In this document: positions 6,305 through 64,000 of the stretch, piece after piece
Numbering within the stretch: the first letter of the stretch is position 1
Layout of the letters: each line of letters begins with the position of its first letter
Assembly (NCBI GenBank): GCA_012522045.1
Contig: JAAYLC010000198.1
Span: 1,797-65,796 of the forward strand
Direction: 5' to 3'
Origin: Bacteroidota bacterium
Lineage (GTDB): Bacteria > Bacteroidota > Bacteroidia > Flavobacteriales > Flavobacteriaceae
Length of the DNA stretch: 64,000 nucleotides
Made by a program: the position numbers and the translations under genes
Notes under the pieces: generated by a model
Database searches by the model: none
The model's input: only the letters and a program-made list of their open reading frames with translations
Told to the model about the DNA's origin: nothing

Positions 6305-6337
6305 AATCAAGTTTTCTTGATATTTTAGATTCAAGGC

Positions 6338-13737: not shown

Positions 13738-13785
13738 AGAAATCCGAATGAATAGTTCTAAAAAAACACATAACACAAACACATA

Positions 13786-34047: not shown

Positions 34048-34132
34048 GGAGGAATGGCAGAGTGGTCGAATGCGGCGGTCTTGAAAACCGTTGAGGGTCA
34101 CACCTCCGGGGGTTCGAATCCCTCTTCCTCCG
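34048..34132 (+). tRNA. tRNA-Ser (anticodon UGA)
   Basis: Acceptor stem GGAGGAA/TTCCTCC. Anticodon stem GCGGT/ACCGT with loop CTTGAAA (anticodon TGA). Long variable arm, T-loop GTTCGAATC, discriminator G, no encoded CCA. Confidence 0.9.
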
Positions 34133-34141
34133 CAACCAAAA

Positions 34142-40942: not shown

Positions 40943-43900
40943 ATGAAATTTAAAATCTTCTTGTTTTTTTTCGCGCTCGGAATCGTAAACACATTCAGTC
41001 AGGTGGTGATTGGAGATCCCAACGGTTTCACGGATTTGCTTCCCATCGATGGAAATTACGAATATTCCTATAGCCAACAACTTGTCTATCAAAACGAGAT
41101 AGATGTTGCCGGAAACATCACCTCCATTTCTTTTATGTACCAGTCGGGAGCGACTACCAACAGCAATCAATGGGAGGTTTACTTGGGACATACGAATAAA
41201 GGCTCATTTGTATCTGCTACCGACTGGGTAGATGCTTCGCAACTCACCAAGGTTTTTGACGGCCTTGTTAGCTTTCCCGCCCCCGGCAATTATCTGCAAA
41301 TCAATTTTTCGGTGCCTTTTGCATATAACAATACCGAGCATCTGGTAATTGCGGTAAAAGAAAAGAAAACAGGATATAACGGGGCAATCCTTTTTGCAAA
41401 AACAGCTAACAATCCTGCCACGCCCGGACGCGCCATTTCTTTTTCCGACGATGGTGTAATGCCGGATCCTTTCAATCCTCCAATGGCTTATGAGCTAACT
41501 AATTATATCAATCACATGATGCTCGGAGGACTGACGCAAACTTGTCCTGCTCCCGAAAATTTGCAGACAACCAACATACAGGGAACAAGTGCCGCCGTTC
41601 AGTGGACAGAACAAGGAACGGCATCGCAATGGACGGTGTATTACGGATTGAATGGTTTTAATCCTGCAAATTCATTGCAAACTACCACGCTTACCGTAAC
41701 TTCTCCAAATGCTGTCCTGACCGGGTTACAGCCTGCTACTGCATACGAGTTTTACGTACGTGCTGATTGTGGTTCTTCGGATTTCAGTCAGTTAAAAGGA
41801 CCGGTAATGTTCACTACCCCTTGTGATATAGCGACACTTCCGTATGTGATGGATTTTGAAGGTGCGACTCAGTGTCTGTCGTTTCAAACCGGAGGACAAG
41901 GAAACGGTTGGCTGAAGATGACGGGAAATCAATCTGGTTTCACCGGTATATATGCAGGTTATTTATTTAGTCCTCGACCTGCCGATGCTTGGCTGTTTAC
42001 ACAAGCAGTGGAATTGGAACAAGGAAAAATGTATCGTTTGAGTTATAAATACGGAAACAATTCGATATTTAATACAGAAAAGATGAAAGTAGCCATAGGG
42101 ATTGAAAATGAAATAAGTGCGATGCATACCGTATTGGCAGACCATCCCGAAATAACGATGGCAATACCTAATTTTAATGAAGTAACTTTTCAGGTGCCGA
42201 ATACCGATATTTATTATGTAGGATTCCACGCTTATTCGAATGCCAATCAGTTCCGATTGATGTTGGATGATATTTTGATAGAAGAAGTCACTTATGACTA
42301 TACCTACCAAAACGGCAGTTGGTCGCCTCAAGATCCATCGGGAGTGGCCACAGCTACAGACAATATTATCGTTATCGACGGTGCGGCAACCATCTCTTTA
42401 CCGTTGTATGTGAATAATCTTAACGTGATGGCCGGTGCGACTTTGAGAATGGAAAACACCTTAAACCTACACGGAAACATATTAGCCGACGGAGATTTGA
42501 TTTTTGGAAGTGGTCCCACCGGAAACGGCGAGCTTGCCGCAGTGTCTTCCACTTCGACCATCACGGGCGATGTTGTCGTTGAGCATTATATGCAGGACAG
42601 ACGATCTTATCGCATGGTTTCCAGTGCGGTAACAACTTCGACTTCCATTCGCGACAATTGGCAGGAAGGCGCCAACAGTCGTGCGGACAATCCGCATCCG
42701 GGATATGGAACTCACATCACGGGAAGTACCATTGATCGGCAAAATGGTTTTGATGCCACGCAAACGGGCAATCCCTCTATGTTTGCCGTGGATGTCGGTG
42801 CACAGCAGTTTGTGCCCATAGCCAATACGGACAACACCACACTCAATGCCGGGGATGCTTATCTGCTCTATGTCAGAGGTGACAGGCAACTGAAACATAT
42901 TGATTCTACAGGACACAGTGAAACGACACTCAGAACTCGCGGACAATTGCATATCGGCGATTATAGCCAAACGTTCCCTACTACCGCTGCCAATCAGTTT
43001 GTAATGTTCGGTAACCCATATCAGAGTGCTGTCGATATCAATAACGTGTTTGACGATGCTGTCAATGTCAATAAAGGATATTACTACGTGTACGACGTCA
43101 ATGTCGGAGATTATGGAGGGTATGTGACAATTACGCTTCCTGCCGGAACAAACACCTTGGGTTTAAGCGTAAACCAATACCTGCAAGCCGGGCAAGCGGC
43201 GCAGTTTTCAACCCTGACCAACGGCAGTGCTACCATCAATTTTTCAGAAGCGCATAAAGCTCCCGGAAATTATACGGCTAACAATGCAGGAAGCGGGATG
43301 ATGGCAACGCAAATGCTCAACATACAGCTGTTTACAGAAAAAAAATATAACGAAGGCGGTTCGGTACAAGACGGCACGGCAATTTTGTTTAATCCAAATC
43401 ACACCAATGCCGTAACAGCATCAGATGCGCCCAAAGCATTTAATTTTGGAGAAAATATAGCCGTTGACAATAACGGAAATTACTTGAGTATCGAACAGCG
43501 TGAATTGCCTCAAGCCGGAGAAGTGTTTTCTCTCTATACTTCCGGTTTTGCGCATCACGAATATGTGTTGAAAATTGAGTCGGAAGGTTTGGACGATTAC
43601 GTAATGGTTTTGGAAGATATGTTTGCCGGAACCGAAACCCTGTTGACTTCTGGAATAAATACTTACAATTTTGAAATTTCCGATGCACTGAGCAAAGCCC
43701 ATGACCGTTTTCGCATTCGGGTCGTTTCCGACTTGTTAAATGTTGACGAATATGCATTCGAAGGCGTACGCCTGTATCCGAATCCGTTGCGACAAACAAA
43801 GTTTTACATTCATGCACCGAGTATTGCAGACCGAGAAGTGGATGTTCACATTGCCGACATGGCAGGACGTGAAATTTATAAAAAACAAGTCACGGTTTCC

Positions 43901-44008
43901 GATCAAACCTTAGCGGTGGAGATTCCCGAACACGTGTCGGCAGGAATTTATTTGGTCACTTTAACGTCTCAAGGAGAAACCCAAACATTGAGATTGGTAA
44001 AGGAATAA
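40943..44008 (+). CDS. large secreted T9SS cargo protein (FN3 domain plus C-terminal sorting domain)
   Basis: Signal peptide MKFKIFLFFFALGIVNTFSQ. FN3-like segment CPAPENLQTTNIQGTSAAVQW...YEFYVRADCG. C-terminal ~80 aa (VRLYPNPLRQTKFYIH...GIYLVTLTSQGETQTLRLVKE) match the T9SS type-A sorting-domain pattern. Confidence 0.8.
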   Translation: MKFKIFLFFFALGIVNTFSQVVIGDPNGFTDLLPIDGNYEYSYSQQLVYQNEIDVAGNITSISFMYQSGATTNSNQWEVYLGHTNKGSFVSATDWVDASQLTKVFDGLVSFPAPGNYLQINFSVPFAYNNTEHLVIAVKEKKTGYNGAILFAKTANNPATPGRAISFSDDGVMPDPFNPPMAYELTNYINHMMLGGLTQTCPAPENLQTTNIQGTSAAVQWTEQGTASQWTVYYGLNGFNPANSLQTTTLTVTSPNAVLTGLQPATAYEFYVRADCGSSDFSQLKGPVMFTTPCDIATLPYVMDFEGATQCLSFQTGGQGNGWLKMTGNQSGFTGIYAGYLFSPRPADAWLFTQAVELEQGKMYRLSYKYGNNSIFNTEKMKVAIGIENEISAMHTVLADHPEITMAIPNFNEVTFQVPNTDIYYVGFHAYSNANQFRLMLDDILIEEVTYDYTYQNGSWSPQDPSGVATATDNIIVIDGAATISLPLYVNNLNVMAGATLRMENTLNLHGNILADGDLIFGSGPTGNGELAAVSSTSTITGDVVVEHYMQDRRSYRMVSSAVTTSTSIRDNWQEGANSRADNPHPGYGTHITGSTIDRQNGFDATQTGNPSMFAVDVGAQQFVPIANTDNTTLNAGDAYLLYVRGDRQLKHIDSTGHSETTLRTRGQLHIGDYSQTFPTTAANQFVMFGNPYQSAVDINNVFDDAVNVNKGYYYVYDVNVGDYGGYVTITLPAGTNTLGLSVNQYLQAGQAAQFSTLTNGSATINFSEAHKAPGNYTANNAGSGMMATQMLNIQLFTEKKYNEGGSVQDGTAILFNPNHTNAVTASDAPKAFNFGENIAVDNNGNYLSIEQRELPQAGEVFSLYTSGFAHHEYVLKIESEGLDDYVMVLEDMFAGTETLLTSGINTYNFEISDALSKAHDRFRIRVVSDLLNVDEYAFEGVRLYPNPLRQTKFYIHAPSIADREVDVHIADMAGREIYKKQVTVSDQTLAVEIPEHVSAGIYLVTLTSQGETQTLRLVKE

Positions 44009-44020
44009 ATTTTTCAGCGG

Positions 44021-44275
44021 GAAGCGGTTTTTTAGTTGAAAGTTGAAAGTTGAAAGTTTTTGGGCGTGAGGCGAAATGCGTGAAGGGTGAAGCGTTTTTT
44101 TTAGTTGAAAGTTGAAAATTTGAGCTTCCTTAAATAGCATTGACCATTAACCATTAACCATTAACCATTTATCATTATTTTGTTGAGGCGTGAAGCGTTT
44201 TTTAGTTGAAAATTGAAAGTTTATTTGAGTCTCCCTAAATAGCGTTGACTTGTCATTTACCTGTTTACTTTCAAC
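44021..44275 (+). repeat. composite repeat block A: two tandem ~100-nt units made of 7-nt tandem arrays
   Basis: Each unit reads (GCGTGAA-type heptads), T-run, AGTTGAA heptads, TTTGAGCTTCCTTAAATAGCATTGAC, then a further heptad array (CCATTAA x~4 at 44143-44169). The unit restarts at 44087 and at 44188. The TTTGAG...TTGAC core recurs at 44119-44144 and 44224-44249. Confidence 0.85.
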
Positions 44276-44361
44276 ACCTCAAATGTCAGTTCGAGTATTT
44301 TTCAAATGTAGCGGAGCAAATTTGGAAAATGTATCGAGAACAGATTATGTTAACTAAACTC

Positions 44362-44416
44362 ACATTCACCATTCACCATTCACCATTCACCATTCCCCAT
44401 TCACCATTCCCCATTC
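44362..44416 (+). repeat. tandem heptanucleotide array CCATTCA/CCATTCC (~7.8 copies)
   Basis: The read is ACATTCACCATTCACCATTCACCATTCACCATTCCCCATTCACCATTCCCCATTC. It ends ~80 nt upstream of the cysQ start. Confidence 0.9.
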
Positions 44417-44493
44417 TTAATTCCTTTTTTATTTACATCTCATTTTCAATTTTTTTTTATTTCTTTGTAAACTCAATAATCTGACCAAATAAC

Positions 44494-45279
44494 GTGAAAA
44501 ATTTATTGACTGCTGCTATTCTTGCCGCTACTGAAGCCGGACAAGAAATACTAAAAATATACGAAAATCCGATTGCTGTTGAAATAAAAGACGACAATTC
44601 TCCCCTTACTCTTGCCGATAAACATGCCAATACGGTCATCAACCATCATCTTGAACCTTTGGGAATTCCGATTATCAGTGAAGAAAACAAGCAAACTGCT
44701 TATGAAGTTCGGAAAGGTTGGAATCGGTGTTGGATTGTGGATCCGTTGGACGGAACCAAAGAATTTATCAAACGCAACGGCGAATTTACCGTAAACATTG
44801 CCCTTATAGAAAACGACACGCCGGTACTCGGCGTGATTTATGTCCCGGTGACCAAAGAACTCTATTTTAGTTCTCCGCAACAAAAAGGCGCCTTTAAAAC
44901 CATTCTCCAATCAGGAGCAAACGTTGAAGAATTTTTAGAACACGCAAAACCGATACATCCCCAAACTGCCGAAGTGGTTAAAATTGTCGGAAGCAAATCT
45001 CATTTAAATGAAGACACTTCCAATTTTATAAAATCGGTTGAGAAGTCCACTCCGGTGGAAGTGATTTCCAAAGGAAGTTCGCTTAAATTTTGTTTGGTAG
45101 CCGAAGGGAAAGCGCAGTTATATCCGCGTTTTGCACCCACCATGGAATGGGATACGGCTGCCGGCGATGCGATATGTCGTGCCGTGGGTGTATCCGTAAT
45201 CGATCAAACGACCGCGAAACCCATGAAATACAACAAACAAAACTTGTTAAACAATTATTTCTTGGTGCGTTATGCTTGA
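44494..45279 (+). CDS. cysQ: 3'(2'),5'-bisphosphate nucleotidase
   Basis: GTG start. Inositol-monophosphatase-superfamily motifs IISEEN and WIVDPLDGTKEF. Context is cysC/D/N. Confidence 0.85.
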   Translation: MKNLLTAAILAATEAGQEILKIYENPIAVEIKDDNSPLTLADKHANTVINHHLEPLGIPIISEENKQTAYEVRKGWNRCWIVDPLDGTKEFIKRNGEFTVNIALIENDTPVLGVIYVPVTKELYFSSPQQKGAFKTILQSGANVEEFLEHAKPIHPQTAEVVKIVGSKSHLNEDTSNFIKSVEKSTPVEVISKGSSLKFCLVAEGKAQLYPRFAPTMEWDTAAGDAICRAVGVSVIDQTTAKPMKYNKQNLLNNYFLVRYA

Positions 45280-45685
45280 TCGGTCCAAAAGGAGGCACCT
45301 TGCCAAGACCATTACTTGGAGAATTGTCGGGACCTTAGACACGATTATTATTTCTTGGGTCATCACGGGAAGTCCTTTATTGGGCGTGCAAATAGGAGGC
45401 GCAGAAGTATTGACAAAAATGGTGTTGTACTACTTGCACGAACGCGCGTGGTTTAAAATCAATTTGACCAAAGCCGGGTATATTCGCAAAAGTCGGATAC
45501 GGCATATCATAAAAGCCGTCACTTGGCGCATTATTGGAACTTTGGATACCATGGTGTTGGGATGGATCATTTCGGGAAATGCCATGGCGGGGTTAAAAAT
45601 CGGATTGGTAGAATTACTGACCAAGATGTTTTTATATTATTTACATGAACGCGTATGGTACAAATCAACCTACGGATTGGATTAG
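45272..45685 (+). CDS. DUF2061-like small membrane protein (internally duplicated)
   Basis: Two homologous halves: RHLAKTITWRIVGTLDTIIISWVITG...LTKMVLYYLHERAWFKI and RHIIKAVTWRIIGTLDTMVLGWIISG...LTKMFLYYLHERVWYKS. Its ATG overlaps the cysQ stop (ATGCTTGA). Confidence 0.6.
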   Translation: MLDRSKRRHLAKTITWRIVGTLDTIIISWVITGSPLLGVQIGGAEVLTKMVLYYLHERAWFKINLTKAGYIRKSRIRHIIKAVTWRIIGTLDTMVLGWIISGNAMAGLKIGLVELLTKMFLYYLHERVWYKSTYGLD

Positions 45686-45696
45686 AATAAAATACA

Positions 45697-46299
45697 ATGG
45701 CAAACCTGTTTAAACAAAATTATCAGATTGAAGCTGCTCATCGTCAAAAATTAAAGGGACACCGTCCTTTGACTTTGTGGTTTACCGGCCTGTCCGGATC
45801 GGGAAAATCGACAATTGCCAATGCGTTGGAACAAAAATTATACGACGAGGGAATTCACACCTATACTTTGGACGGGGATAACATTCGCTTGGGCATCAAT
45901 GCCAACCTCACCTTCAGTCCTGAAGACCGCGCCGAAAACCTGCGCCGTGTAGCCGAAGTAGCCAAATTGATGAATGATGCCGGGCTGGTTGTTCTGGCTG
46001 CTTTTGTGTCGCCTTACAGAAAAGACAGAGAAAAGGTGAAAAATATCGTAGGGAATGATAACTTTGTCGAAATTTATGTAAATACTCCCTTGGAAACGTG
46101 TGAGGCACGCGATATAAAAGGCTTGTATGCAAAAGCACGAAAAGGAGAAATACAGAATTTTACAGGTGTCAATGCGCCTTATGAACCTCCCCTAAATTCA
46201 GACATCAGCATCGACACCTCCAAAGAGTCGATAGAAACTTCCGTAGCAACATTATGGGAGCAACTAAAAAACAGAATCATAGAAACACCATCAACATAA
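45697..46299 (+). CDS. cysC: adenylyl-sulfate (APS) kinase
   Basis: P-loop GLSGSGKST and LDGDNIR motif. 200 aa. Confidence 0.9.
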   Translation: MANLFKQNYQIEAAHRQKLKGHRPLTLWFTGLSGSGKSTIANALEQKLYDEGIHTYTLDGDNIRLGINANLTFSPEDRAENLRRVAEVAKLMNDAGLVVLAAFVSPYRKDREKVKNIVGNDNFVEIYVNTPLETCEARDIKGLYAKARKGEIQNFTGVNAPYEPPLNSDISIDTSKESIETSVATLWEQLKNRIIETPST

Positions 46300-46319
46300 A
46301 TGCATTGAGAACTAATGAT

Positions 46320-47225
46320 ATGAGCACGTATTATTTAAATTATTTAGACGAATTAGAAGCAGAAGCAATTTACATCCTTCGTGAAGTGGCGGCACAATTT
46401 GAAAACCCCGTCATTTTGTTTTCGGGTGGGAAAGATTCTATTTTGGTTACCCATTTGGCACGAAAGGCATTTTATCCGTGTAAGATTCCATTTGCACTTT
46501 TACACGTGGATACCGGACACAATTTTCCGGAAACCATCGCTTTCCGCGACCAATTGATTGAAGAATTGGGCGTTCAGTTGTTGGTAGGCTCGGTACAGGA
46601 AGCCATCGATAACGGAAGAGTGGTGGAGGAACGCGGTAGAAACGCTTCCAGAAATACTTTGCAAATCACCACCTTATTGGATGCCATTGAGACCCATCGG
46701 ATTGATTGTGCCATTGGTGGCGGAAGAAGAGACGAAGAAAAAGCCCGTGCAAAAGAACGCATTTTCTCGCACCGCGATGAGTTTGGACAATGGGATCCGA
46801 AAAACCAACGTGCCGAACTGTGGACCATTCTCAACGGCAAATGTTTTGAAGGCGAACATTTTCGCGCTTTCCCAATCAGTAATTGGACAGAAATGGACGT
46901 GTGGAATTACATTCGTCGGGAAAACATTCAAATCCCTTCTCTTTATTTTGCACACGAACGCGAAGTAGTTTGGAGAAACAACTCGTGGATTCCCGTTTCG
47001 GAGTTTTTAAAACGAGACGAACGCGAAGAAATCGTCACCAAGAGAATTCGCTTCCGCACACTGGGCGACATCACCATTACGGGCGGGATTGAATCCGATG
47101 CCGATACTTTGGAGAAAATCGTGATGGAAGTGGCGGCGATGAAACAGACCGAACGCGGGAATCGAGCAGATGACAAACGCAGTGAAACGGCGATGGAAGA
47201 CAGAAAAAAACAAGGATATTTTTAA
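46320..47225 (+). CDS. cysD: sulfate adenylyltransferase subunit 2
   Basis: PP-loop FSGGKDS. I start it at ATG 46320 (MSTYYLNYLDELEAEAI...) rather than the track's 46254, which overlaps cysC. Confidence 0.9.
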   Translation: MSTYYLNYLDELEAEAIYILREVAAQFENPVILFSGGKDSILVTHLARKAFYPCKIPFALLHVDTGHNFPETIAFRDQLIEELGVQLLVGSVQEAIDNGRVVEERGRNASRNTLQITTLLDAIETHRIDCAIGGGRRDEEKARAKERIFSHRDEFGQWDPKNQRAELWTILNGKCFEGEHFRAFPISNWTEMDVWNYIRRENIQIPSLYFAHEREVVWRNNSWIPVSEFLKRDEREEIVTKRIRFRTLGDITITGGIESDADTLEKIVMEVAAMKQTERGNRADDKRSETAMEDRKKQGYF

Positions 47226-48513
47226 GGGAAATATAAGTAACAAAAAAACGACAGCAGTGGAATTAAATAACAACCAATTATTACGATTTACGACAGCGGG
47301 AAGTGTAGATGACGGAAAAAGTACCCTAATCGGACGTTTGTTGTACGACAGTAAAGCCATTTTTGAAGATCAGTTGGAAGCCGTAGAAAAAACGAGTACC
47401 CGAAAAGGACTTGAATCGGTAGATTTGGCCATGTTTACCGACGGATTGCGAGACGAAAGAGAACAAGGAATTACCATCGATGTTGCTTACCGTTATTTTA
47501 CAACGCCCAAACGAAAATTTATCATTGCCGATACGCCCGGTCACATTCAGTACACGCGAAATATGGTAACCGGTGCTTCGACTGCAAATGCGGCATTGAT
47601 TCTTATCGATGCCCGTCAGGGAGTGACGGAACAAACCAAGCGCCATTCCTTTATCGCTTCGCTGTTACACATTCCTCATGTGATTGTGTGTGTCAACAAA
47701 ATGGATTTGGTCGATTATTCCGAAGAAGTGTTCCAAAACATCGTCCGTCAGTTTGAAGCCTTTTCGTCAAAACTGATGATTAAGGACATTCGGTTTTTAC
47801 CTATCAGTGCTTTGCTGGGAGACAATGTGGTAAACCGTTCCGAAAACATGCCGTGGTTTCAAGGCGCCCCTTTGTTGTCCAATTTGGAAACCATGCACAT
47901 TGGAAGCGATATCAATAAAATTGATGCCCGATTCCCGGTTCAGACCGTGCTGCGACCGCAATCGGAGGAATTCAGAGACTTTAGAGGCTATGCCGGAAGA
48001 ATTTCCAGCGGTATTTTCAGAGTCGGTGACGAAGTGGTGGTGCTGCCTTCGGGATTAACTTCCTCCATCAAAGCCATCACGACCATGGACGGCGAATTGG
48101 ACGAAGCTTTTGCGCCCATGTCCGTCGCCATAAGTTTGGAAGATGATATCGATGTCAGTCGCGGCGATTTGATTGCAAAGAAAAACAACCGTCCGGAACC
48201 GTTGCAGCGGTTTGATGCCATGATATGTTGGTTTGGAACTCGTCCTGCACAAACTCGGGCAAAATACACCATCTTACACGCCAATAACGAACAAAAAGCA
48301 ATAATCAAAGAAGTATTGTATAAAATCGATATCGATACGTATGCCCGGAATGAAGCGGACAAAGAATTGCGGATGAACGACATCTGTCGGGTGAGTATGC
48401 ACACGACGGCACCTTTGATGACCGACAAGTATCGTGACAACCGAATTACCGGAAGTTTTGTCCTGATTGACGAAGGCACGTTCGAAACCGTTGCGGCGGG
48501 AATGATTGTTTAA
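47170..48513 (+). CDS. cysN: sulfate adenylyltransferase subunit 1 (GTPase); start uncertain
   Basis: G motifs GSVDDGKST, DTPGH and NKMD. ATG 47170 overlaps cysD by 56 nt. GTG 47257 (VELNNNQLLRF...) is an alternative start 31 nt after the cysD stop. Confidence 0.85.
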   Translation: MTNAVKRRWKTEKNKDIFKGNISNKKTTAVELNNNQLLRFTTAGSVDDGKSTLIGRLLYDSKAIFEDQLEAVEKTSTRKGLESVDLAMFTDGLRDEREQGITIDVAYRYFTTPKRKFIIADTPGHIQYTRNMVTGASTANAALILIDARQGVTEQTKRHSFIASLLHIPHVIVCVNKMDLVDYSEEVFQNIVRQFEAFSSKLMIKDIRFLPISALLGDNVVNRSENMPWFQGAPLLSNLETMHIGSDINKIDARFPVQTVLRPQSEEFRDFRGYAGRISSGIFRVGDEVVVLPSGLTSSIKAITTMDGELDEAFAPMSVAISLEDDIDVSRGDLIAKKNNRPEPLQRFDAMICWFGTRPAQTRAKYTILHANNEQKAIIKEVLYKIDIDTYARNEADKELRMNDICRVSMHTTAPLMTDKYRDNRITGSFVLIDEGTFETVAAGMIV

Positions 48514-48679
48514 AATTATAGGTGAGAAAAATGCTTAAAATTACGATTGATTTAAAATTTAAGGAGGCCATACATGATTTTAAATACGATCGCAGCACAT
48601 TGGCCTAAAATGAATGGTTTTTATCAATTTCTTATATTTTTTATATTAGCACCACTAACGATTACCATATTTTCAATTT

Positions 48680-49525
48680 ATGGAACTTGAAACCAGAGTA
48701 TATCAAAAAGAAAGCAACCTCCGGGTGGGTAGGCTGCTCAGAGAAAGTTTGATTGACATAAATAAATCCCGCTTTTTGTCGTTTCAATTGGCAAAACGCG
48801 ATATTTCTGCCATGTACCGCCAGAGTTTCCTCGGGATTTTATGGGCATTTATCATGCCGCTCAGTACGGCTTTTGTTTGGATTTTCTTAAACAGCTCGGG
48901 CACGGTACGCGTCACTGACACAGGCATTCCGTATCCGGTGTATGCATTTACCGGAACGCTGCTCTGGTCGATTATTACCGAAGCGATCAATTCTCCCATC
49001 ACGAGTACCAACGGCTCCAAATCCATTTTGGCGAAAATCAACTTTCCCAAAGAGGCATTGGTCATGTCCGGAATTTTGAAGTTGCTCTTTAACAGTTCGA
49101 TAAAGGTGTTAATCCTGATAATTTTTGTGTTTGCCTTCGGAGTCGGATTTCACTGGAGTTTGCTGTTGTTTCCGATTGCTTTGTTCGGCGGGATCCTCTT
49201 CGGAACGACGGTAGGGCTTTTTATTACGCCTCTGGGACTGCTTTATACCGATGTCGGCAAAATGATTACGTTCGGATTGCAATTATTGATGTATGTGACG
49301 CCGGTGGTGTATTCCATTCCGGAAAGTGGCATTATGAAAACCATAATGGAATGGAATCCCTTGACTCCAATCATCTTAACCGCCCGCGATTTGGCTGTGG
49401 GGATGCCGCCGACCTACTTGACCTATTTTTTAATCGTCGTCTTAGGCTGTATTCCCTTGTTGTTTGTAGGCTTGGTATTTTATAGAATTTCCATCCCGAT
49501 TTTGGTGGAGCGGATGAGTTCGTAA
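48680..49525 (+). CDS. wzm: ABC-2 type polysaccharide export permease
   Basis: 281 aa and six TM helices. The N-terminal cytoplasmic stretch ...RDISAMYRQSFLGILWAFIMPL is typical of Wzm/TagG/KpsM permeases. Confidence 0.8.
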   Translation: MELETRVYQKESNLRVGRLLRESLIDINKSRFLSFQLAKRDISAMYRQSFLGILWAFIMPLSTAFVWIFLNSSGTVRVTDTGIPYPVYAFTGTLLWSIITEAINSPITSTNGSKSILAKINFPKEALVMSGILKLLFNSSIKVLILIIFVFAFGVGFHWSLLLFPIALFGGILFGTTVGLFITPLGLLYTDVGKMITFGLQLLMYVTPVVYSIPESGIMKTIMEWNPLTPIILTARDLAVGMPPTYLTYFLIVVLGCIPLLFVGLVFYRISIPILVERMSS

Positions 49526-49527
49526 GA

Positions 49528-49577
49528 GCGTGAAGCGAAATGCGTGAAGGGTGAAGCGAAAAGCGTGACGCTTCACG
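49528..49577 (+). repeat. repeat block B: 7 phased heptads (GCGTGAA GCGAAAT GCGTGAA GGGTGAA GCGAAAA GCGTGAC GCTTCAC)
   Basis: Starts 3 nt after the wzm stop. Shares GAAATGCGTGAAGGGTGAAGCG with 44073-44094. GTGAAGCG and CGCTTCAC within it can pair as a hairpin. Confidence 0.85.
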
Positions 49578-49594
49578 AAAAAATATTAATAGTT

Positions 49595-49945
49595 ATGAAC
49601 CATAAAGATTTAGATGTTTGGAAATGTAGTATGGATTTGGTTACGCTGGTTTATCAAAATACGGCTCAATTGCCGAAAGAAGAACGATATGGATTAACAA
49701 GTCAAATGCGTCGTGCTGCGGTTTCTATACCTTCTAATATTGCTGAAGGTTCAGCGAGGAAAGGAGATAAAGAACTCATTCAATTTATTACAATAGCATT
49801 AGGATCAGTCGCTGAATTAGAAACACAATATTTGATTGCAATACGATTAAAACTTATTGAAGAAAATAACAATTTAGAAGATTTGATAATTAAGGTAAGA
49901 CAATTATTATTGGGATATAGAAATTATTTAGTGCGAAAAACGTAA
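49595..49945 (+). CDS. four-helix-bundle protein (23S rRNA intervening-sequence protein / Avd-like family)
   Basis: 116 aa with the family pattern DLDVWKCSMDLV...LPKEERYGLTSQMRRAAVSIPSNIAEGSARKGDKELIQFITIALGSVAELETQ. The true start is ATG 49595, because the track's GTG at 49544 lies inside repeat B. Confidence 0.85.
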   Translation: MNHKDLDVWKCSMDLVTLVYQNTAQLPKEERYGLTSQMRRAAVSIPSNIAEGSARKGDKELIQFITIALGSVAELETQYLIAIRLKLIEENNNLEDLIIKVRQLLLGYRNYLVRKT

Positions 49946-49947
49946 AA

Positions 49948-50019
49948 CGTGAAGTGAAATGCGTGAAGGGTAAATCGAAATGCGCTAAACGCCTCACGCC
50001 TCACGCCTCACGCCTCACG
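49948..50019 (+). repeat. repeat block C: ~10 phased heptads ending in (CGCCTCA)x4
   Basis: The read is ACGTGAA GTGAAAT GCGTGAA GGGTAAA TCGAAAT GCGCTAA ACGCCTC x4. It starts 3 nt after the four-helix-bundle stop. CGCCTCACG is the reverse complement of the CGTGAGGCG-type heptads on the left side. Confidence 0.85.
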
Positions 50020-50035
50020 AAAAAACAATTAACCA

Positions 50036-51259
50036 ATGAGTAACGAAGTTTTAGTAAAAGTCGAAAACGTCTCCAAAAAATTCTGTAAAGACCTTAAAAC
50101 CAGTTTGTGGTATGGGGTGAAAGATTTAGTTTCCGGCTTGAAGGGCAACAAGCAAGAGCGCAAGTTGCGTCCCAAGGAATTTTGGGCGGTCAAAGACATC
50201 AGTTTTGAGCTGCGCCGGGGCGAGTGTCTCGGCTTGATCGGACACAACGGTGCCGGAAAATCGACCTTGTTGAAAATTTTAAACGGATTGATCAATCCCG
50301 ATGCCGGAAAAGTTACCATGAAAGGCAGGGTAGGCGCGTTGATTGAATTGGGTGCCGGGTTTAACCCCATTTTGACCGGAAGAGAAAACATCTATAACAA
50401 CGGTGCGATTCTCGGTTTTACACGGCAAGAGATTGATGCCAAGATGAAAGCCATCATTGAATTTTCCGAATTGGAAGAGTTTTTAGACATGCCCGTGCGC
50501 AACTACAGCAGCGGAATGAAAGTGCGTTTGGGTTTTGCCGTTGCGGCGCAGATGGAACCGGACGTGCTAATCATAGATGAAGTGTTGGCAGTAGGAGATT
50601 TGGGCTTTATTCTAAAATGCTTTAAGCAGATAGACAGAATATTGCCTCATACAGCCATTATTTTCGTTTCGCACAATATGCCAATGGTCTCCCGCATCTG
50701 TACGCAAATTATTTTGATGGAGAAAGGGCAAAGTAAATTTCAAGGAGAGGATGTGTCTAAAGCCATTGATTTGTACTACACCCGATTTGCAAATAACGAA
50801 AGCAATGTTGTTTTTGATGACGGCTCTTTAAAATTGGAGCAGGTAGAAATTCCCGATGCATCTTATTTGGAAGGCATTCCGCAAGTGCCATGGGGCGAAA
50901 CGCTGAAACTGAAATTCAGGTTTTCGATTAAAAGACCCATGAATGTGCCTTTTTTTGGTATCAATATTTTGGACAAAGAACAGCGTCCGGTGGCGGTATT
51001 AAAGCGCAATCCGGAAAACTCCGATTTGGAAATCAAGGATGGAGTGCTAGAATTCATCGCGATTCATAAACATCTACAGCTTTCAAAAGGACTGTATTCC
51101 ATCAACATTTCGGTTTCGGAATTTGTTAGAAATAACCCCGTACTTAGAATAAATAGCATTCTGTCATTTCAGGTAAATTATGAAGAAGAAATCTGGCCGC
51201 CTTTTTTGCTGCAATCTGAATTTAAGGCAGTCAATAATTCCGTGAAAAGTATAAAATAA
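50036..51259 (+). CDS. wzt: polysaccharide ABC exporter ATP-binding protein with C-terminal substrate-binding-type extension
   Basis: Walker A GHNGAGKST, signature YSSGMKVRL and Walker B LIIDEVL. About 160 extra C-terminal residues are beta-rich (GETLKLKFRFSIKRP...YSINISVSEF), as in Wzt proteins that carry a glycan-end-binding domain. Confidence 0.85.
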   Translation: MSNEVLVKVENVSKKFCKDLKTSLWYGVKDLVSGLKGNKQERKLRPKEFWAVKDISFELRRGECLGLIGHNGAGKSTLLKILNGLINPDAGKVTMKGRVGALIELGAGFNPILTGRENIYNNGAILGFTRQEIDAKMKAIIEFSELEEFLDMPVRNYSSGMKVRLGFAVAAQMEPDVLIIDEVLAVGDLGFILKCFKQIDRILPHTAIIFVSHNMPMVSRICTQIILMEKGQSKFQGEDVSKAIDLYYTRFANNESNVVFDDGSLKLEQVEIPDASYLEGIPQVPWGETLKLKFRFSIKRPMNVPFFGINILDKEQRPVAVLKRNPENSDLEIKDGVLEFIAIHKHLQLSKGLYSINISVSEFVRNNPVLRINSILSFQVNYEEEIWPPFLLQSEFKAVNNSVKSIK

Positions 51260-51329
51260 GAACTATCTTTTTCAATTCCTGCTGGTAAAACCTTATATTC
51301 GCAAAAGAATTCAACCAACCAACAACCAA

Positions 51330-52430
51330 ATGATACCTGTAACCAAACCATTTTTGCCTCCGCAGGAGGAATACCAGGCTTACCTGAACGAGATATGGAG
51401 CAGCGGTTGGCTCACCAATATGGGACCGCTGTCGGTCGAACTGGAACAAAAACTTACAGCCCATCTTCGTGTGCCGCAGCTGTTGTACGTTACCAACGGC
51501 ACCGTGGCATTGCAAATGGCAATCAAAGCATTGGACTTAAAAGGGGAAATCATCACCACGCCTTTTTCTTTCGTCGCCACCACCAGCAGCATTGTATGGG
51601 AAGGCTGTACGCCCGTGTTTGTAGATATCGATTCTGACAGCTTAAACATCGATGCCGGCAAGATTGAAGCCGCCATTACCGAAAAAACAACCGCCATCCT
51701 TGCTACCCACGTTTATGGAAATCCGTGCGATGTGCTTGCCATTGACGCCATTGCCAAAAAACACAACTTAAAAGTAATCTACGATGCCGCCCATGCCTTT
51801 GGCGTGGAAGTTTATGGGAAATCCATTTTTGAATACGGAGACATTTCTACGTGTTCGTTGCACGCTACCAAATTGTACCATTCCATTGAAGGCGGTTTGA
51901 TAATTGCCGGAAATGCGGAATTGCACCAAAAGTTGCGATACATTCGCAATTTCGGAATCTCCGGATTTTATGAGTTTGCAGAATTGGGGATTAACGGCAA
52001 GAATAGTGAGTTTCACGCCGCTATGGGTTTGGTTAATTTAAATCACATCGCTGCCATTTCAGAAAAGCGCAAAGCATTGGTAAAGAAATATGATGAATTA
52101 TTAAAAGAAACCCGGTTGCAGCGTCCTGTTTGGCATCAAGATTCCGAAAATAATGCCGCTTATTATCCTGTTATTTTTGAAACGGAGGAAGCATTACTTC
52201 AAGCGGAAGAAACTTTCAAACAAAATCAAATCGGAACCAGACGGTATTTTTATCCCAGCTTGGCAACTGCATTGCCTTACTTGGATCCAACTGAAATGGA
52301 GATTACAGATAGTATTTCCAAAAGGGTTTTGTGTTTGCCACTTTATTATGATTTAGAAATTGAAGATGTCAACGTTGTATGTGGGATTTTGAAATTAAAT
52401 AATCAAATTCAAACAATAAAGCACAGCTAA
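51330..52430 (+). CDS. DegT/DnrJ/EryC1/StrS-family sugar aminotransferase
   Basis: N-terminus MIPVTKPFLPP and PLP-lysine context SLHATKLYHSIEGG. 366 aa. Confidence 0.85.
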   Translation: MIPVTKPFLPPQEEYQAYLNEIWSSGWLTNMGPLSVELEQKLTAHLRVPQLLYVTNGTVALQMAIKALDLKGEIITTPFSFVATTSSIVWEGCTPVFVDIDSDSLNIDAGKIEAAITEKTTAILATHVYGNPCDVLAIDAIAKKHNLKVIYDAAHAFGVEVYGKSIFEYGDISTCSLHATKLYHSIEGGLIIAGNAELHQKLRYIRNFGISGFYEFAELGINGKNSEFHAAMGLVNLNHIAAISEKRKALVKKYDELLKETRLQRPVWHQDSENNAAYYPVIFETEEALLQAEETFKQNQIGTRRYFYPSLATALPYLDPTEMEITDSISKRVLCLPLYYDLEIEDVNVVCGILKLNNQIQTIKHS

Positions 52431-52445
52431 TCAAATTTTAATGCA

Positions 52446-53588
52446 ATGAAACACAATCAATACAATGAGAATTTCAAGTTTTTCAAAGAACCTTCGGAAT
52501 TCAATAAATATTCAGACAAAAGTTTGTTGCAATATTGTTTGGGAGGGACGTTGTATATGCCTGGAAATAAAAATGTGATTAATAAGATTCTAACTAAGAA
52601 TTTGAATCATGTCACATCAATGGTGATGGACTTTGAAGATGCTCTAAAGGCTAAGGATGTTTCTAATGCAGAGGAAAATGTATTGGAGCACCTAACAATA
52701 CTATATGAAGCTGTTGAATCGAATAAAATTTCGTACGATGACATTCCGCTAATCTTTTTAAGAGTAAGAAATATAGAGCAATTTCGGAATTTTATACAAC
52801 GTGTTAATAGACAACAAGCTGACGTATTAACTGGATTTGTTTTTCCAAAATTTTATAGTGATAATGCGGACGAATATCTGAGTGAATTAAAAAGGTTAAA
52901 CAAAAATCTTGGTGTTAATCTATATGGAATGCCTATCCTCGAGGGTAGGGCAATTGCTTTTAAAGAATCGAGATTAGATGAACTTAAAGCGCTTCAAAAA
53001 ATTATAGAACCTTATAAACATTTGATTCTGAACATTCGTGTAGGAGGAACTGATTTTTCTTCTATTTTTGGAGTTCGGCGAGGCATCAATTCTTCTATTT
53101 ACGATATACTTACAGTTAGAGATTGTCTTTCAGACATCCTCAATTTTTTTAACCGTGAGGGCGTAGGTTATACTGTATCTGCCCCTGTATGGGAATATTT
53201 TTTAGCCTATAAGAAAGATAATATACAACATCTTTTGGAACGCGACATTAATCATTCCTTATTGAGCAGGAATACCATTCTCAACGAAGCCATTGATGGT
53301 CTTTTAAGAGAGGTTTTGTTGGATAAAGCCAATGGATTTGTAGGGAAAACAATTATCCACCCTTCACATATTAAGTTTGTGAATGCAATGCAAGCGGTTA
53401 CAAGAGAAGAATATGAAGATGCGGTACAAGTTTTAGGTACAGAAGGAGGTGTTATAAAAAGTGCAAAAGCCAATAAAATGAACGAGATAAATCCACATCG
53501 GAACTGGGCCGTAAAAATTGTAAATAAAGCCAACGCATACGGAGTGGTAGAAGATGAGCGTTCGTATCTGAAATTGATACTTGGTTAA
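52446..53588 (+). CDS. CitE/HpcH-HpaI-like C-C lyase/aldolase family protein (long form, 380 aa)
   Basis: Metal-site motif MVMDFEDAL (the xDxED of citrate lyase beta/HpcH) and KTIIHPSHI (the IHPxQ-type motif). About 90 aa longer than the canonical CitE length as I recall it. Confidence 0.65.
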   Translation: MKHNQYNENFKFFKEPSEFNKYSDKSLLQYCLGGTLYMPGNKNVINKILTKNLNHVTSMVMDFEDALKAKDVSNAEENVLEHLTILYEAVESNKISYDDIPLIFLRVRNIEQFRNFIQRVNRQQADVLTGFVFPKFYSDNADEYLSELKRLNKNLGVNLYGMPILEGRAIAFKESRLDELKALQKIIEPYKHLILNIRVGGTDFSSIFGVRRGINSSIYDILTVRDCLSDILNFFNREGVGYTVSAPVWEYFLAYKKDNIQHLLERDINHSLLSRNTILNEAIDGLLREVLLDKANGFVGKTIIHPSHIKFVNAMQAVTREEYEDAVQVLGTEGGVIKSAKANKMNEINPHRNWAVKIVNKANAYGVVEDERSYLKLILG

Positions 53589-53605
53589 CTATTAAACAAA
53601 TAATA

Positions 53606-54955: not shown

Positions 54956-54970
54956 AACAATTTAATAGAA

Positions 54971-55864: not shown

Positions 55865-55867
55865 ATT

Positions 55868-58155: not shown

Positions 58156-58196
58156 TTTATTTTTCAACTCTTTGCTAAGTAAAAATTCCTTAGAAT

Positions 58197-58916: not shown

Positions 58917-58919
58917 ATT

Positions 58920-60263: not shown

Positions 60264-60268
60264 AAAGA

Positions 60269-61282: not shown

Positions 61283-61296
61283 ATAGAAAATATATT

Positions 61297-62295: not shown

Positions 62296-62315
62296 TAACA
62301 TCCTGCTTCGCTACC

Positions 62316-62545
62316 AAAAAAACTCTCAACTCTCAACTTTCAACTCTCAACTTTCAATTTTCAACTTTCAACTAAAAACCGCTTCACGCCCGAAAAAACT
62401 CTCAATTTTCAATTTTCAACTTTCAATTAAAAAACCCTTCACGCCTCAACAAAATAATGATTAATGATTAATGGTTAATGTTATTTAAGGAAGCTCAAAT
62501 TTTCAATTTTCAATTTTCAATTTTCAACTTTCAATTTTCAACTTT
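62316..62545 (-). repeat. composite repeat block D: three heptad arrays, an inverted copy of block A
   Basis: Heptad arrays of CTCAACT/TTTCAAC type lie at 62322-62373, 62398-62428 and 62495-62545. CGCTTCACGCC/CCTTCACGCC spacers and a TAATGAT/TAATGGT array lie at 62455-62482. Segment 62436-62528 is the reverse complement of 44103-44197, apart from heptad copy number and two flank mismatches. Confidence 0.9.
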
Positions 62546-62617
62546 GACATATTTAAGAATGTAAATTCCGAATTCAAAATTTTTGCTATTTTTATAATTT
62601 CTGAATAGCGACCAATT

Positions 62618-63856: not shown

Positions 63857-63949
63857 AACTGTATAATGTAAACTGTATAATGAATGTCCTGAACGCCTCA
63901 AGATAAAAAACTCTCAACTCTCAATTTTCAACTAGAGAAACGTTTCACG
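63857..63949 (-). repeat. repeat block E: 14-nt tandem duplication plus a shortened direct copy of the first unit of block D
   Basis: AACTGTATAATG occurs twice (63857-63868 and 63871-63882). AAAAAACTCTCAACTCTCAATTTTCAACTAGAGAAACGTTTCACG (63905-63949) parallels 62316-62388, but with 3 heptads instead of 7. Confidence 0.8.
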
Positions 63950-64000
63950 AAAAAAAGACGTATGACCGCTTCGCTTTAGGACATAGGACTAAAGAAATCG

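What the first reader, a model, noticed from the sequence alone, without database searches (positions are those of the whole stretch)
44034..44416. Family of different tandem heptanucleotide arrays, with a copy-number difference between the two inverted copies
At least six different sequences are repeated with the same 7-nt period:
- AGTTGAA: 44034-44057, 44103-44117, 44203-44219
- GCGTGAA/GCGAAAT/GGGTGAA: 44064-44094, 49528-49577, 49948-49989
- CCATTAA: 44143-44169
- CCATTCA/CCATTCC: 44362-44416
- CGCCTCA: 49990-50019
- the complementary TTTCAAC/CTCAACT and TAATGAT/TAATGGT arrays at 62322-62545 and 63911-63933

The CCATTAA array has about 4 units at 44143-44169. Its inverted counterpart (62455-62482) has about 2 full units plus partials, and block E carries 3 heptads where block D has 7. 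That is the footprint expected from slipped-strand copy-number change.

A period of 7 is not a multiple of 3, which argues against a coding origin. The arrays lie in the 5' regions of the cysQ operon, wzt and the orphan gene, so length changes could alter promoter or UTR geometry and cause phase variation. A protein or RNA that reads heptad repeats is an alternative.
Basis: partly seen in the sequence, partly recalled or inferred. Interest (0 to 1): 0.65.

Follow-up and report, generated by a model that had tools for sequence, protein, structure and literature searches.

The report
Heptad repeat arrays flanking intervening genes
The 7-base tandem repeats are real and change in 7-base steps between strains, and arrays of the same kind turn out to bracket a small 'intervening-sequence' gene (PF05635) inside operons in at least two bacterial phyla (plus one Clostridia genome), which links two long-unexplained features of bacterial genomes.

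Summary
Only period 7 gives tandem runs in the window: 6 exact runs against 0 in shuffles and 0 for periods 4-6 and 8-12. All arrays are intergenic. The two inverted copies differ by exactly 2x7 nt. Related strains (98.4-99.4% identical) differ by one unit, by unit type, or carry a different heptamer at the same site.

The arrays belong to a mosaic repeat family of purine-strand NNNTGAR heptads and their complements. For example, CCATTCA is the complement of TGGTGAA. The family recurs at other sites in this digester Bacteroidota lineage.

Heptanucleotide arrays as a class are known (cyanobacterial STRR, Beggiatoaceae/Bacteroidetes TAACTGA, H. influenzae hmw). I found no report of their tie to the PF05635 "23S rRNA intervening-sequence protein" gene (IVP, 49595-49945).
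- IVP sits between wzm and wzt in all 20 Bacteroidota places looked up. It is flanked by (NNGTGAR)n arrays of 1-27 in-register units, with GTGA 97-99.5% invariant.
- A complementary array often lies before wzt, giving predicted long stems that enclose the gene.
- In 7 of 8 cyanobacterial plasmid contexts, IVP lies in short spacers between annotated genes (four inside nrd or CRISPR-cas operons) and is likewise flanked by heptads. Background there is about 3 arrays per 50 kb.

Phase variation is not shown. An IVS-like stem or binding-arm role is the best-supported reading.

The parts
44026..44061 (+). T-run followed by (AGTTGAA)x3.6, starting 18 nt after the stop codon of the T9SS-tail protein gene (40943-44008). 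Purine-strand ('R') array.
44062..44102 (+). GCGTGAR-type R array (GGGCGTGAGGCGAAATGCGTGAAGGGTGAAGCG) plus T8. It is a copy of the arm that flanks the IVP gene (78% identical to 49529-49565).
   Evidence: family D3
44103..44142 (+). (AGTTGAA)x2 followed by the non-heptad module TTTGAGCTTCCTTAAATAGCATTGA. The module recurs at 44227, as the reverse complement at 62483, and in L139, L142 and L149.
44143..44177 (+). (CCATTAA)x4-5, a G-free pyrimidine-strand ('Y') array. It is two units longer than its inverted paralogue at 62455-62482.
44186..44221 (+). GCGTGAAGCG, then T6, then AGTTGAA AATTGAA AGTT. This is the composite junction used as the search pattern.
44222..44361 (+). Conserved non-heptad core with a hairpin at 44290-44338 (GTCAGTTCGAGT...TATCGAGAAC). 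Also present in L142/L145 and L149. The hairpin motif alone (about 44286-44345) recurs upstream of wzm in L151 (three copies) and L153, with a different stem sequence.
44362..44424 (+). (CCATTCA/CCATTCC)x8, a Y array with 0 G in 63 nt, 78 nt upstream of the cysQ start. It is the reverse complement of TGGTGAA/TGGGGAA. It differs between strains in copy number and unit type.
49526..49594 (+). R arm starting directly after the wzm stop codon (GCGTGAA GCGAAAT GCGTGAA GGGTGAA GCGAAAA GCGTGAC), then a short complement GCTTCACG and A6. Forms a local hairpin (z = -3.15).
49595..49945 (+). IVP gene, a PF05635 '23S rRNA intervening sequence protein' (four-helix-bundle protein), lying between wzm and wzt.
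   Evidence: (E = 3.1e-35)
49946..50035 (+). Second R arm directly after the IVP stop codon (ACGTGAA GTGAAAT GCGTGAA GGGTAAA...). It is followed by the Y arm (CGCCTCA)x4.4 at 49990-50019, which ends 17 nt before the wzt start. The Y arm pairs with the arm at 49526-49577 in the fold of the whole junction.
62318..62545 (+). Inverted copy of the mosaic: Y arrays (CTCAACT/TTTCAAC/AATTTTC), CGCTTCACGCC modules and (TAATGAT)x3.7. It lies between the GT2 gene stop and the start of the orphan gene. The tract 62318-62454 has 41 C and 4 G.
63905..63955 (+). Short Y array (CTCAACT CTCAATT TTCAACT) plus CGTTTCACG and A7. More heptads (TAATGRT, CAACNGA) follow just past the window end, seen in L139.

Best explanation
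SHOWN. These are genuine heptanucleotide simple-sequence arrays. They form a mosaic intergenic repeat family in an uncultured digester Bacteroidota. Units grow, shrink and swap in 7-nt steps, which is the pattern slippage leaves, and modules are reshuffled between strains.

SHOWN. Arrays of this kind are the regular flanks of PF05635 (IVP) genes. These are small genes intercalated between the cistrons of conserved operons: wzm|wzt here and across Bacteroidota, and nrdB|nrdA, cas6|cas4 and cmr2|cmr3 in cyanobacteria.

INFERRED. The arrays act as the cis arms of an intervening-sequence-like cassette. A purine-strand array follows the upstream stop codon, and a complementary pyrimidine-strand array precedes the downstream start codon. 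In the operon transcript the two pair and loop out the IVP ORF. This is the architecture of the 23S rRNA intervening sequences that gave the family its name and that RNase III excises.

Tandem repeats suit this role for two reasons. Any unit can pair with any complementary unit, so pairing survives indels. The arrays also offer portable homology for moving or deleting the cassette.

The nearly invariant GTGAR core suggests the arms are also read by a protein, possibly IVP itself.

The arrays at 44034-44416, 62318-62545 and 63905-63955 have no IVP gene. On this reading they are solo or rearranged arms of the same family: footprints, landing pads or independently spreading modules. Their effect on cysQ-operon expression is secondary and unproven.
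For: Arrays are real and restricted to period 7.

Change in 7-nt steps:
- Indels in multiples of 7 between the two inverted copies.
- Indels and unit swaps between strains.
- A different heptamer, (CAATGAA)n, at the same position right after the wzm stop codon in L003 and L004.

The same composite modules occur at at least 5 other genomic sites of related digester contigs.

IVP and wzm/wzt:
- IVP lies between wzm and wzt for 6 of 6 homologues looked up, in 20 places.
- One of these lineages has a Wzm only 24% identical to the window's.
- In four Flavobacteriaceae genomes the IVP gene is 99.4% identical at the DNA level. In two of the three comparisons wzm is 77% identical (98.7% in the third). 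wzt is 81-87% identical over about half its length.

Array composition: 200 heptads sliced in register from the two spacers give G195 T194 G195 A199 at positions 3-6 and R at position 7. Positions 1-2 vary. Copy number is 1-27.

Pairing:
- Whole-junction folds give 28-69 long-range pairs enclosing the ORF.
- Arm-to-arm duplexes beat shuffles in 11 of 15 loci, with z down to -10.3. The L158 duplex is weak (-13.8 kcal/mol).
- The heptamer differs between lineages but the arms stay complementary: GCGTGAA/CGCCTCA, GGTGAGT/ACTCACC, GGGAGTA/TCCCTAC, AGTCAGG/CTTCTGA, GGAAATA/TATTTCC.

Independent sample: 8 cyanobacterial plasmid IVP genes were taken by rank from the hit list. Seven have period-7 arrays directly upstream and one has period 8. 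The background is 3 arrays in 50 kb of pNPUN02, about 58 spacers.

Across phyla, neighbouring ARTTGAR arrays within 600 nt are oriented purine-arm then pyrimidine-arm 21 times against 1.
Against: - There is no experimental evidence for transcription, RNase III cleavage or protein binding.
- In one Bacteroidota lineage (L158-L165) and in Pseudanabaena (L177) the arrays on both sides are on the same strand. A stem is therefore not universal.
- In 4 of 15 loci the arms are no more complementary than shuffles.
- Most heptad arrays have no IVP gene nearby. Only 2 of 120 AATTGAA loci carry one within 8 kb, and neither is adjacent. The three IVP-less sites in the window are linked to IVP only by shared modules.
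- The arrays at 44034-44416 are not complementary to each other and fold no better than shuffles.
- The Bacteroidota IVP contexts are one orthologous subfamily, chosen by similarity to the window's protein.
- Module reshuffling rests on short-read metagenome contigs, which can be mis-joined in repeats.
Confidence: 0.5

Rival explanations
1. Classical contingency loci. Slipped-strand changes in heptad number alter promoter spacing or 5'-UTR length and switch the surface-polysaccharide operon, wzt and the orphan gene on and off.
For: - The arrays lie upstream of cysQ, wzt and the orphan gene.
- One-unit differences occur between strains, and a T9/T10 tract also varies.
- There is precedent in the (ATCTTTC)n repeat of H. 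influenzae hmw1A (PMC12721329, PMC8262952).
Against: - No promoter could be placed.
- Identical arrays also sit after stop codons and in other orientations and contexts.
- The 62296-62617 spacer is invariant at 99.7% identity in two other samples.
- Several different arrays per spacer is not the hmw pattern.
- Heterogeneity within one population was not testable.
Confidence: 0.15
2. Neutral or selfish microsatellites. Heptamers are the slippage-prone unit size for bacterial polymerases, and the arrays persist in intergenic DNA without any function.
For: - Heptameric repeats are over-represented in many bacterial genomes, and a polymerase-footprint explanation has been proposed (Mrazek 2007, as cited in PMC4679880 and PMC4692102).
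- Copy number is free to vary.
- The arrays are far more common than IVP genes.
Against: - Variation is concentrated in 2 of the 7 positions while GTGA is 97-99.5% fixed.
- The arrays keep their position at the wzm|IVP|wzt junctions across 56-84% protein identity of the flanking genes, and across 24% for one Wzm.
- The two arms co-vary to stay complementary.
- Neighbouring arrays show a 21:1 polarity.
Confidence: 0.2
3. Unstructured single-strand platforms in mRNA. G-free Y arrays upstream of start codons act as landing pads for ribosomes or protein S1 in an organism without Shine-Dalgarno sequences, or as Rho loading sites. Stop-rich R arrays after genes end translation in all three frames.
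For: - Y arrays have 0-4 G in 63-137 nt and fold at about -1 kcal/mol.
- They precede the starts of cysQ, wzt and the orphan gene.
- R units carry TGA, and the stop codon is often part of the first unit.
- No intrinsic terminators follow the T9SS or GT2 genes.
- MacGregor proposed S1 or Csp binding for TAACTGA repeats (PMC4679880).
Against: - Between co-directional genes the G-containing strand is the sense strand 37 times against 18, the opposite of what a rut site predicts.
- A Y array directly follows the GT2 stop codon.
- Stop-codon content of unrelated heptamers is only weakly above chance, 18 of 31 against 40% expected.
Confidence: 0.12
4. The inverted 120-200-nt copies at 44.0 kb and 62.4 kb are the ends of a composite mobile or invertible 18-kb polysaccharide segment.
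For: The arms are 91-92% complementary and include non-heptad modules.
Against: - Copies elsewhere in the lineage are equally similar, at 84-91%.
- Arrays more than 600 nt apart show no orientation bias in 120 loci: 7, 6, 5 and 4.
- No recombinase or transposase ORF was seen among the genes annotated between 40.9 and 63.7 kb, and no target duplication was noted.
- Inversion between these arms would carry the cysQ leader along with the operon.
Confidence: 0.03

Closest known systems
Heptanucleotide tandem repeats of cyanobacteria, Beggiatoaceae and Bacteroidetes (STRR of Calothrix/Anabaena; TAACTGA repeats, MacGregor 2015, PMC4679880; GGGAATC and GGGGAYT repeats, PMC4692102)
   Same: - 7-nt unit and intergenic location.
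- Several heptamer types mixed in one spacer.
- 7-nt indels between strains.
- Stop codons in all three frames on one strand.
- Contigs that break inside the arrays.
- The reverse complement of TAACTGA itself occurs in related contigs of this lineage (L144, L147).
   Different: The heptamers here are different (AGTTGAA, GCGTGAA, CCATTCA and others). They are combined with non-heptad modules into a dispersed mosaic. The papers I read do not report any link to PF05635 genes or complementary arms bracketing a gene.
23S rRNA intervening sequences (IVS) carrying an S23p/PF05635 ORF (from my own knowledge: Leptospira, Coxiella and others; excised by RNase III at a stem formed by the flanks)
   Same: A PF05635 ORF is enclosed by complementary flanks that can form a long stem. 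It is inserted into a transcript whose two sides must both stay functional.
   Different: - The host is a protein-coding operon (wzm|wzt, nrd, cas), not rRNA.
- The stem arms are tandem heptads of variable copy number.
- Some lineages have same-strand arrays and no stem.
- Excision was not tested.
H. influenzae hmw1A/hmw2A (ATCTTTC)n phase-variable repeat (PMC12721329)
   Same: A heptanucleotide repeat in a transcribed leader forms one arm of a long hairpin with a complementary arm and is processed by RNase III. Copy number varies.
   Different: hmw is a single array type at one pair of genes, with a proven effect on expression. Here there are many array types at many junctions, bracketing a gene, and no expression data.
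Mosaic intergenic repeats such as E. coli BIMEs/REP elements and MITEs
   Same: Dispersed intergenic elements built from a small set of modules in varying order, number and orientation, sitting at gene boundaries and at rearrangement breakpoints.
   Different: The units are tandem heptads rather than palindromic REP units. No RAYT or other transposase, terminal inverted repeat or target duplication was identified.

Membership tests
Heptanucleotide simple-sequence repeat arrays (STRR-like / long SSR) | Head-to-tail copies of a 7-nt unit, beyond chance | tested here: met
   TRF. 6 exact runs against 0 in shuffles, and 0 for other periods.
Heptanucleotide simple-sequence repeat arrays (STRR-like / long SSR) | Intergenic location, with several different heptamers in one genome | tested here: met
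Heptanucleotide simple-sequence repeat arrays (STRR-like / long SSR) | Length polymorphism in multiples of the unit between copies or strains | tested here: met
   2x7 nt between paralogues. 8 against 7 units and a 21-nt block between strains.
SSR-driven phase-variable contingency locus | Repeat lies between the promoter elements, in the 5'-UTR or in the ORF of the regulated gene | tested here: inconclusive
   The arrays are 17-78 nt upstream of start codons, but no promoter could be placed.
SSR-driven phase-variable contingency locus | Repeat-number heterogeneity within a population | not testable with these tools
   No reads are available. Two assemblies of the same sample agree.
SSR-driven phase-variable contingency locus | Expression changes with repeat number | not testable with these tools
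   Needs reporter fusions or RNA-seq.
IVS-type intervening element with a PF05635 ORF | Encodes a PF05635 protein | tested here: met
   Pfam E = 3.1e-35.
IVS-type intervening element with a PF05635 ORF | Complementary flanks that form a stem enclosing the ORF | tested here: met
   41 long-range pairs in the window fold. Duplex -52.9 kcal/mol, z = -8.2. Not met in L158-L165.
IVS-type intervening element with a PF05635 ORF | Inserted in a 23S rRNA helix | tested here: not met
   It lies between the wzm and wzt protein genes. There is no rRNA in the window.
IVS-type intervening element with a PF05635 ORF | Excised or processed by RNase III | not testable with these tools
   Needs end mapping in wild type and an rnc mutant.
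MITE / composite transposon | Terminal inverted repeats with a target-site duplication, and a cognate transposase | tested here: not met
   No transposase among the genes annotated between 40.9 and 63.7 kb. No orientation bias for distant arrays. No target duplication was noted, although I did not run a dedicated search for one.
Known RNA family (Rfam) | Match to a curated covariance model | tested here: not met
   No match at E <= 1 in 43000-64000. In the whole window only tRNA-Ser reaches a gathering score.

The most novel reading that the evidence does not exclude
Heptanucleotide arrays (STRR-type repeats) are the cis-acting arms of a widespread, unrecognised class of intervening gene cassettes that encode PF05635 proteins. 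The arms form RNase III-type stems, are bound by the IVP oligomer at the periodic GTGAR-like core, and provide the homology by which cassettes move between operon junctions. The many solo arrays in cyanobacteria and Bacteroidota, including 44034-44416, are their footprints or landing pads.
Probability: 0.25. Interest if true: 0.85.

Novelty: new variant of a known kind. Interest (0 to 1): 0.62.

Why it matters
Heptanucleotide repeats have been catalogued in cyanobacteria since 1990 (my recollection of the original STRR report) and later in Bacteroidetes and Beggiatoaceae, without a function. PF05635 proteins are abundant and, in the one paper I read on the point (bioRxiv 10.1101/2024.02.27.582315), are described as functionally uncharacterised.

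A consistent physical link between the two would make both questions testable:
- Map RNA ends at the arrays.
- Test whether IVP binds them.
- Delete the arms.

The link rests on arrays flanking IVP genes in two phyla plus one Clostridia genome. The arms co-vary to stay complementary, and the cassette is far more conserved than its host genes.

There is also a practical point. These arrays are where short-read contigs of polysaccharide loci break, and where strains differ.

Tried and rejected
1. A universal 'NNNTGAA' rule. Among 31 heptamer types at least 3 mismatches away from the search seed, only 1 contains TGAA (expected 5.7%). Stop-triplet content is 18 of 31 against 40% expected. The rule holds only within this lineage and around IVP.

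2. Rfam. No hit in 43000-64000 at E <= 1.

3. Promoters and terminators. There is no Bacteroidetes -7 motif (TAnnTTTG) on the sense strand of any array-bearing spacer. The sigma-70 and terminator scans are at shuffle level, and no terminator follows the T9SS or GT2 genes.

4. A special relation between the two inverted copies 18 kb apart. Rejected because other copies in the lineage are equally similar, and arrays more than 600 nt apart show no orientation bias.

5. Rho loading sites as a general role. The orientation statistics run the wrong way.

6. RNA structure of the 44222-44362 core. z = -0.4, and no covariation among 4 sequences. Later copies in L151 and L153 do show a changed stem, but I did not score this formally.

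7. IVP genes next to AATTGAA arrays. Only 2 of 120 loci carry one, and neither is adjacent.

8. A viral-contig scan for the composite junction gave 0 hits.

9. The L147 junction looks like a circle or duplication junction between two element copies. It may be a chimeric short-read contig, so I did not use it as evidence.

10. The first version of the duplex-shuffle script timed out. I reran it with shorter arms.

Full report
OBSERVATION.

TRF lists ten period-7 arrays between 44034 and 63933, and only one other, weak one in the window (13765-13786, score 37). A census of exact self-match runs gives 6 runs for period 7 and none for periods 4-6 or 8-12. Dinucleotide shuffles of the five intergenic regions (500) and of the whole window (30) give none.

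All arrays lie in spacers between ORFs with Pfam or synteny support:
- T9SS-tail protein | cysQ
- wzm | IVP | wzt
- GT2 | orphan gene
- downstream of the orphan gene

Motif searches find nothing of the kind in positions 1-44000.

The inverted copies at 44105-44221 and 62411-62513 are 91-92% complementary and include non-heptad modules. The right copy lacks exactly two 7-nt blocks of the CCATTAA array. It has 7 ARTTGAA units where the left has 2-3.

Several 'different' heptamers are complements of one purine-strand family: CCATTCA = rc TGGTGAA, CGCCTCA = rc GCGTGAG, CTCAACT = rc AGTTGAG.

SOURCE AND STRAIN COMPARISON.

Exact-protein look-ups place the window in anaerobic-digester metagenomes. 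The T9SS sorting domain and the lack of Shine-Dalgarno sequences point to Bacteroidota.

Contigs from other samples, 98.4-99.4% identical, show the following:
- The array upstream of cysQ has 7 rather than 8 units in L003 and L146. In five other contigs CCATTAA units replace CCATTCA.
- Most Logan contigs end inside the arrays.
- In L146 the modules between the first AGTTGAA array and the core are in a different order and number.
- In L003 and L004 the sequence right after the wzm stop codon is (CAATGAA)n instead of the GCGTGAA array.
- L150 has an extra 21-nt block in the same arm.
- By contrast, the 62296-62617 spacer is identical in two other samples at 99.7% identity.

So the arrays change in 7-nt steps, but not so fast that every population differs.

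A MOSAIC FAMILY.

A metagenome scan for the composite junction (GTGAAGSG, a T-run, then ARTTGAA) found 8 loci. One is the orthologous locus. The others are different genomic sites in contigs of similar G+C content (0.32-0.42). They carry the same modules in various orders, next to gene starts or ends, in either orientation.

A 140-nt non-heptad core (44222-44361, hairpin 44290-44338) recurs at two of these sites. Its hairpin motif, with a different stem sequence, also lies upstream of wzm in more distant relatives.

The loci span Bacteroidota, Ignavibacteria, Thermoanaerobaculia, CPR bacteria, cyanobacteria and others. They share only the arrays with the window. Neighbouring arrays 10-600 nt apart are oriented purine-arm then pyrimidine-arm 21 times against 1, and they fold into long stems. 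Beyond 600 nt there is no bias. The 18-kb separation of the window's inverted copies therefore needs no special explanation.

THE LINK TO THE IVP GENE.

The ORF at 49595-49945 is a PF05635 '23S rRNA intervening sequence protein'. It lies between wzm and wzt, which to my knowledge are normally adjacent.

All six homologues I looked up (70-99% identical, 20 places) lie between an ABC2_membrane (or, where Pfam gives no hit, a same-sized 281-aa) gene and an ABC_tran/Wzt_C gene wherever both flanks are on the contig. In one lineage the Wzm is only 24% identical to the window's.

In four Flavobacteriaceae genomes the IVP gene is 99.4% identical at the DNA level. wzm is 77% identical in two of the three comparisons (98.7% in the third). 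wzt is 81-87% identical over about half its length.

In every case both spacers are filled with heptads that start at, or include, the stop codon. I sliced 200 units in register without requiring a motif. Positions 3-6 are G195 T194 G195 A199, position 7 is A or G, and positions 1-2 vary. Copy number ranges from 1 to 27.

In the window's lineage, in L154 and in L166-L169 a complementary (YTCACNN)n array precedes the wzt start. Folds of the whole junction give 28-69 long-range pairs that enclose the IVP ORF. L158-L165 have same-strand arrays on both sides and no strong stem.

INDEPENDENT SAMPLE.

A tblastn search of plasmids found IVP homologues almost only in cyanobacteria (23 of 24 records), mostly Nostocales. 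I fetched eight, chosen by rank. In seven, IVP sits in short spacers between annotated genes:
- nrdB | nrdA
- cas6 | cas4 (twice)
- cmr2 | cmr3
- three spacers between hypothetical or integrase genes

The eighth (Stanieria) lies between divergent genes next to a transposase.

Seven have period-7 arrays directly upstream, for example (GGGAGTA)x8 and about 45 units of ACAGGTG/ACAGGGA. One has period 8. Five have the complementary array right after the stop codon, with a duplex of -75.4 kcal/mol in Nostoc edaphicum.

As a control, 50 kb of pNPUN02 with about 58 spacers holds three period-7 arrays, and one of them is the array next to its IVP gene.

A Clostridia MAG shows (GGAAATA)n ... IVP ... 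(TATTTCC)n.

Arm-to-arm duplexes beat shuffles in 11 of 15 loci; the L158 duplex is weak, at -13.8 kcal/mol. The heptamer differs between lineages while the arms stay complementary. That is covariation at the level of whole arrays.

INTERPRETATION.

Shown:
- The arrays are real.
- They change in 7-nt steps.
- They form a dispersed mosaic family.
- There is a strong association of PF05635 genes with flanking heptad arrays, whose core is constrained and whose arms are often complementary.

Inferred: the arrays are the arms of an intervening-sequence-like cassette that loops the IVP ORF out of the host operon transcript. The cassette may be processed by RNase III, as rRNA IVSs are (my own knowledge) and as the hmw heptad hairpin is (PMC12721329).

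Tandem arms pair in any register, and they supply homology for cassette exchange or loss. The fixed GTGAR core suggests a protein reader, possibly IVP.

The arrays at 44034-44416 carry a copy of the IVP arm (44064-44094) but no IVP remnant. They do not pair with one another. I read them as solo or rearranged arms, with less confidence.

WHAT IS KNOWN.

Heptamer arrays as a class are described in PMC4679880, which reports mixed heptamer assemblages in Gramella, Aequorivita and Elizabethkingia, 7-nt indels between Cyanothece strains, and stop codons in all frames. PMC4692102 reports over-representation of intergenic heptamers and inverted arrangements.

Phase variation by a heptamer is proven for hmw (PMC8262952, PMC12721329).

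A full-text search for PF05635 and its names returned 27 papers. From the titles and abstracts listed, and the passages I read in two of them, none links it to heptads or to wzm/wzt. One calls the domain functionally uncharacterised.

VERDICT.

- Phase variation is unproven and not the best fit.
- The arrays are a new variant of a known kind.
- The IVP link is the part worth following up.

Noticed in passing
window 49595-49945; loci L150-L169: The PF05635 gene is a conserved tenant of the wzm|wzt junction across Bacteroidota. This holds even where Wzm is only 24% identical to the window's. In four Flavobacteriaceae genomes its DNA is 99.4% identical. The flanking wzm is 77% identical in two of the three comparisons, and wzt is 81-87% identical. 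This points to recent exchange or very strong constraint.
   Followed up: yes
L170-L177 (cyanobacterial plasmids): PF05635 genes lie inside conserved operons: nrdB|nrdA, cas6|cas4 (twice) and cmr2|cmr3. In the nrd case the gene is antisense to its host operon.
   Followed up: partly
window 44286-44345; L151:346-710 (three copies); L153:926-977; L142; L149: A hairpin motif has conserved flanks (GTCAGTTCGAGYG ... TATCGAGAAC) and a stem whose sequence differs between lineages while remaining a hairpin. It sits in the leader of these polysaccharide operons, just upstream of a G-free Y array. There is no Rfam match. It could be a structured RNA or a protein site.
   Followed up: partly
window 44450-44458: The T9 tract 36 nt upstream of the cysQ start is T10 in contig L008, so a homopolymer also varies between strains.
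   Followed up: no
window 44494-62295: One co-directional cluster (apparently a single operon) combines three sets of genes:
- sulfate activation genes (cysQ, a DUF2061 gene, cysC, cysD, cysN);
- wzm and wzt;
- an unusual enzyme set: DegT aminotransferase, C-C bond lyase, MmgE/PrpD, Ldh_2, ATP-grasp, hexapeptide transferase, adenylosuccinate-lyase-like, cyclase and GT2.
This suggests a sulfated or otherwise decorated polysaccharide. G+C falls from about 0.41-0.44 to 0.33-0.39 after 52 kb.
   Followed up: no
window 62618-63691: An orphan 357-aa ORF with no Pfam match. Its exact sequence was found only in this strain's assemblies (3 contigs); a 364-aa gene at the same position in L139 appears to be a variant of it.
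   Followed up: no
L013-L132 (120 genomes of many phyla): ARTTGAA arrays commonly come as inverted pairs, purine arm first (21:1), bracketing 22-420 nt that often contain a GC-rich hairpin. These look like extended bidirectional stem-loops at gene ends. L096 and L115 share a 'TGCTTACGCAAA' segment in the loop.
   Followed up: partly
L144, L147, L148 (contig LSQX01275711.1 and Ga0079225_10058432): L147 joins the inner flanks of two direct element copies that lie 8.4 kb apart in the other contig. That is the junction expected from a circle or a tandem duplication, but it could also be a chimeric short-read assembly.
   Followed up: partly
L144:~6300-6340; L147; L139:4235-4265: The reverse complement of MacGregor's TAACTGA heptamer (TCAGTTA, within GTTATCAGTTATGAG), and CAACTGA/CAACCGA units, occur in this lineage next to the ARTTGAA arrays.
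   Followed up: no
window 34048-34133: tRNA-Ser (anticodon TGA) is the only Rfam or ARAGORN hit in the window.
   Followed up: no
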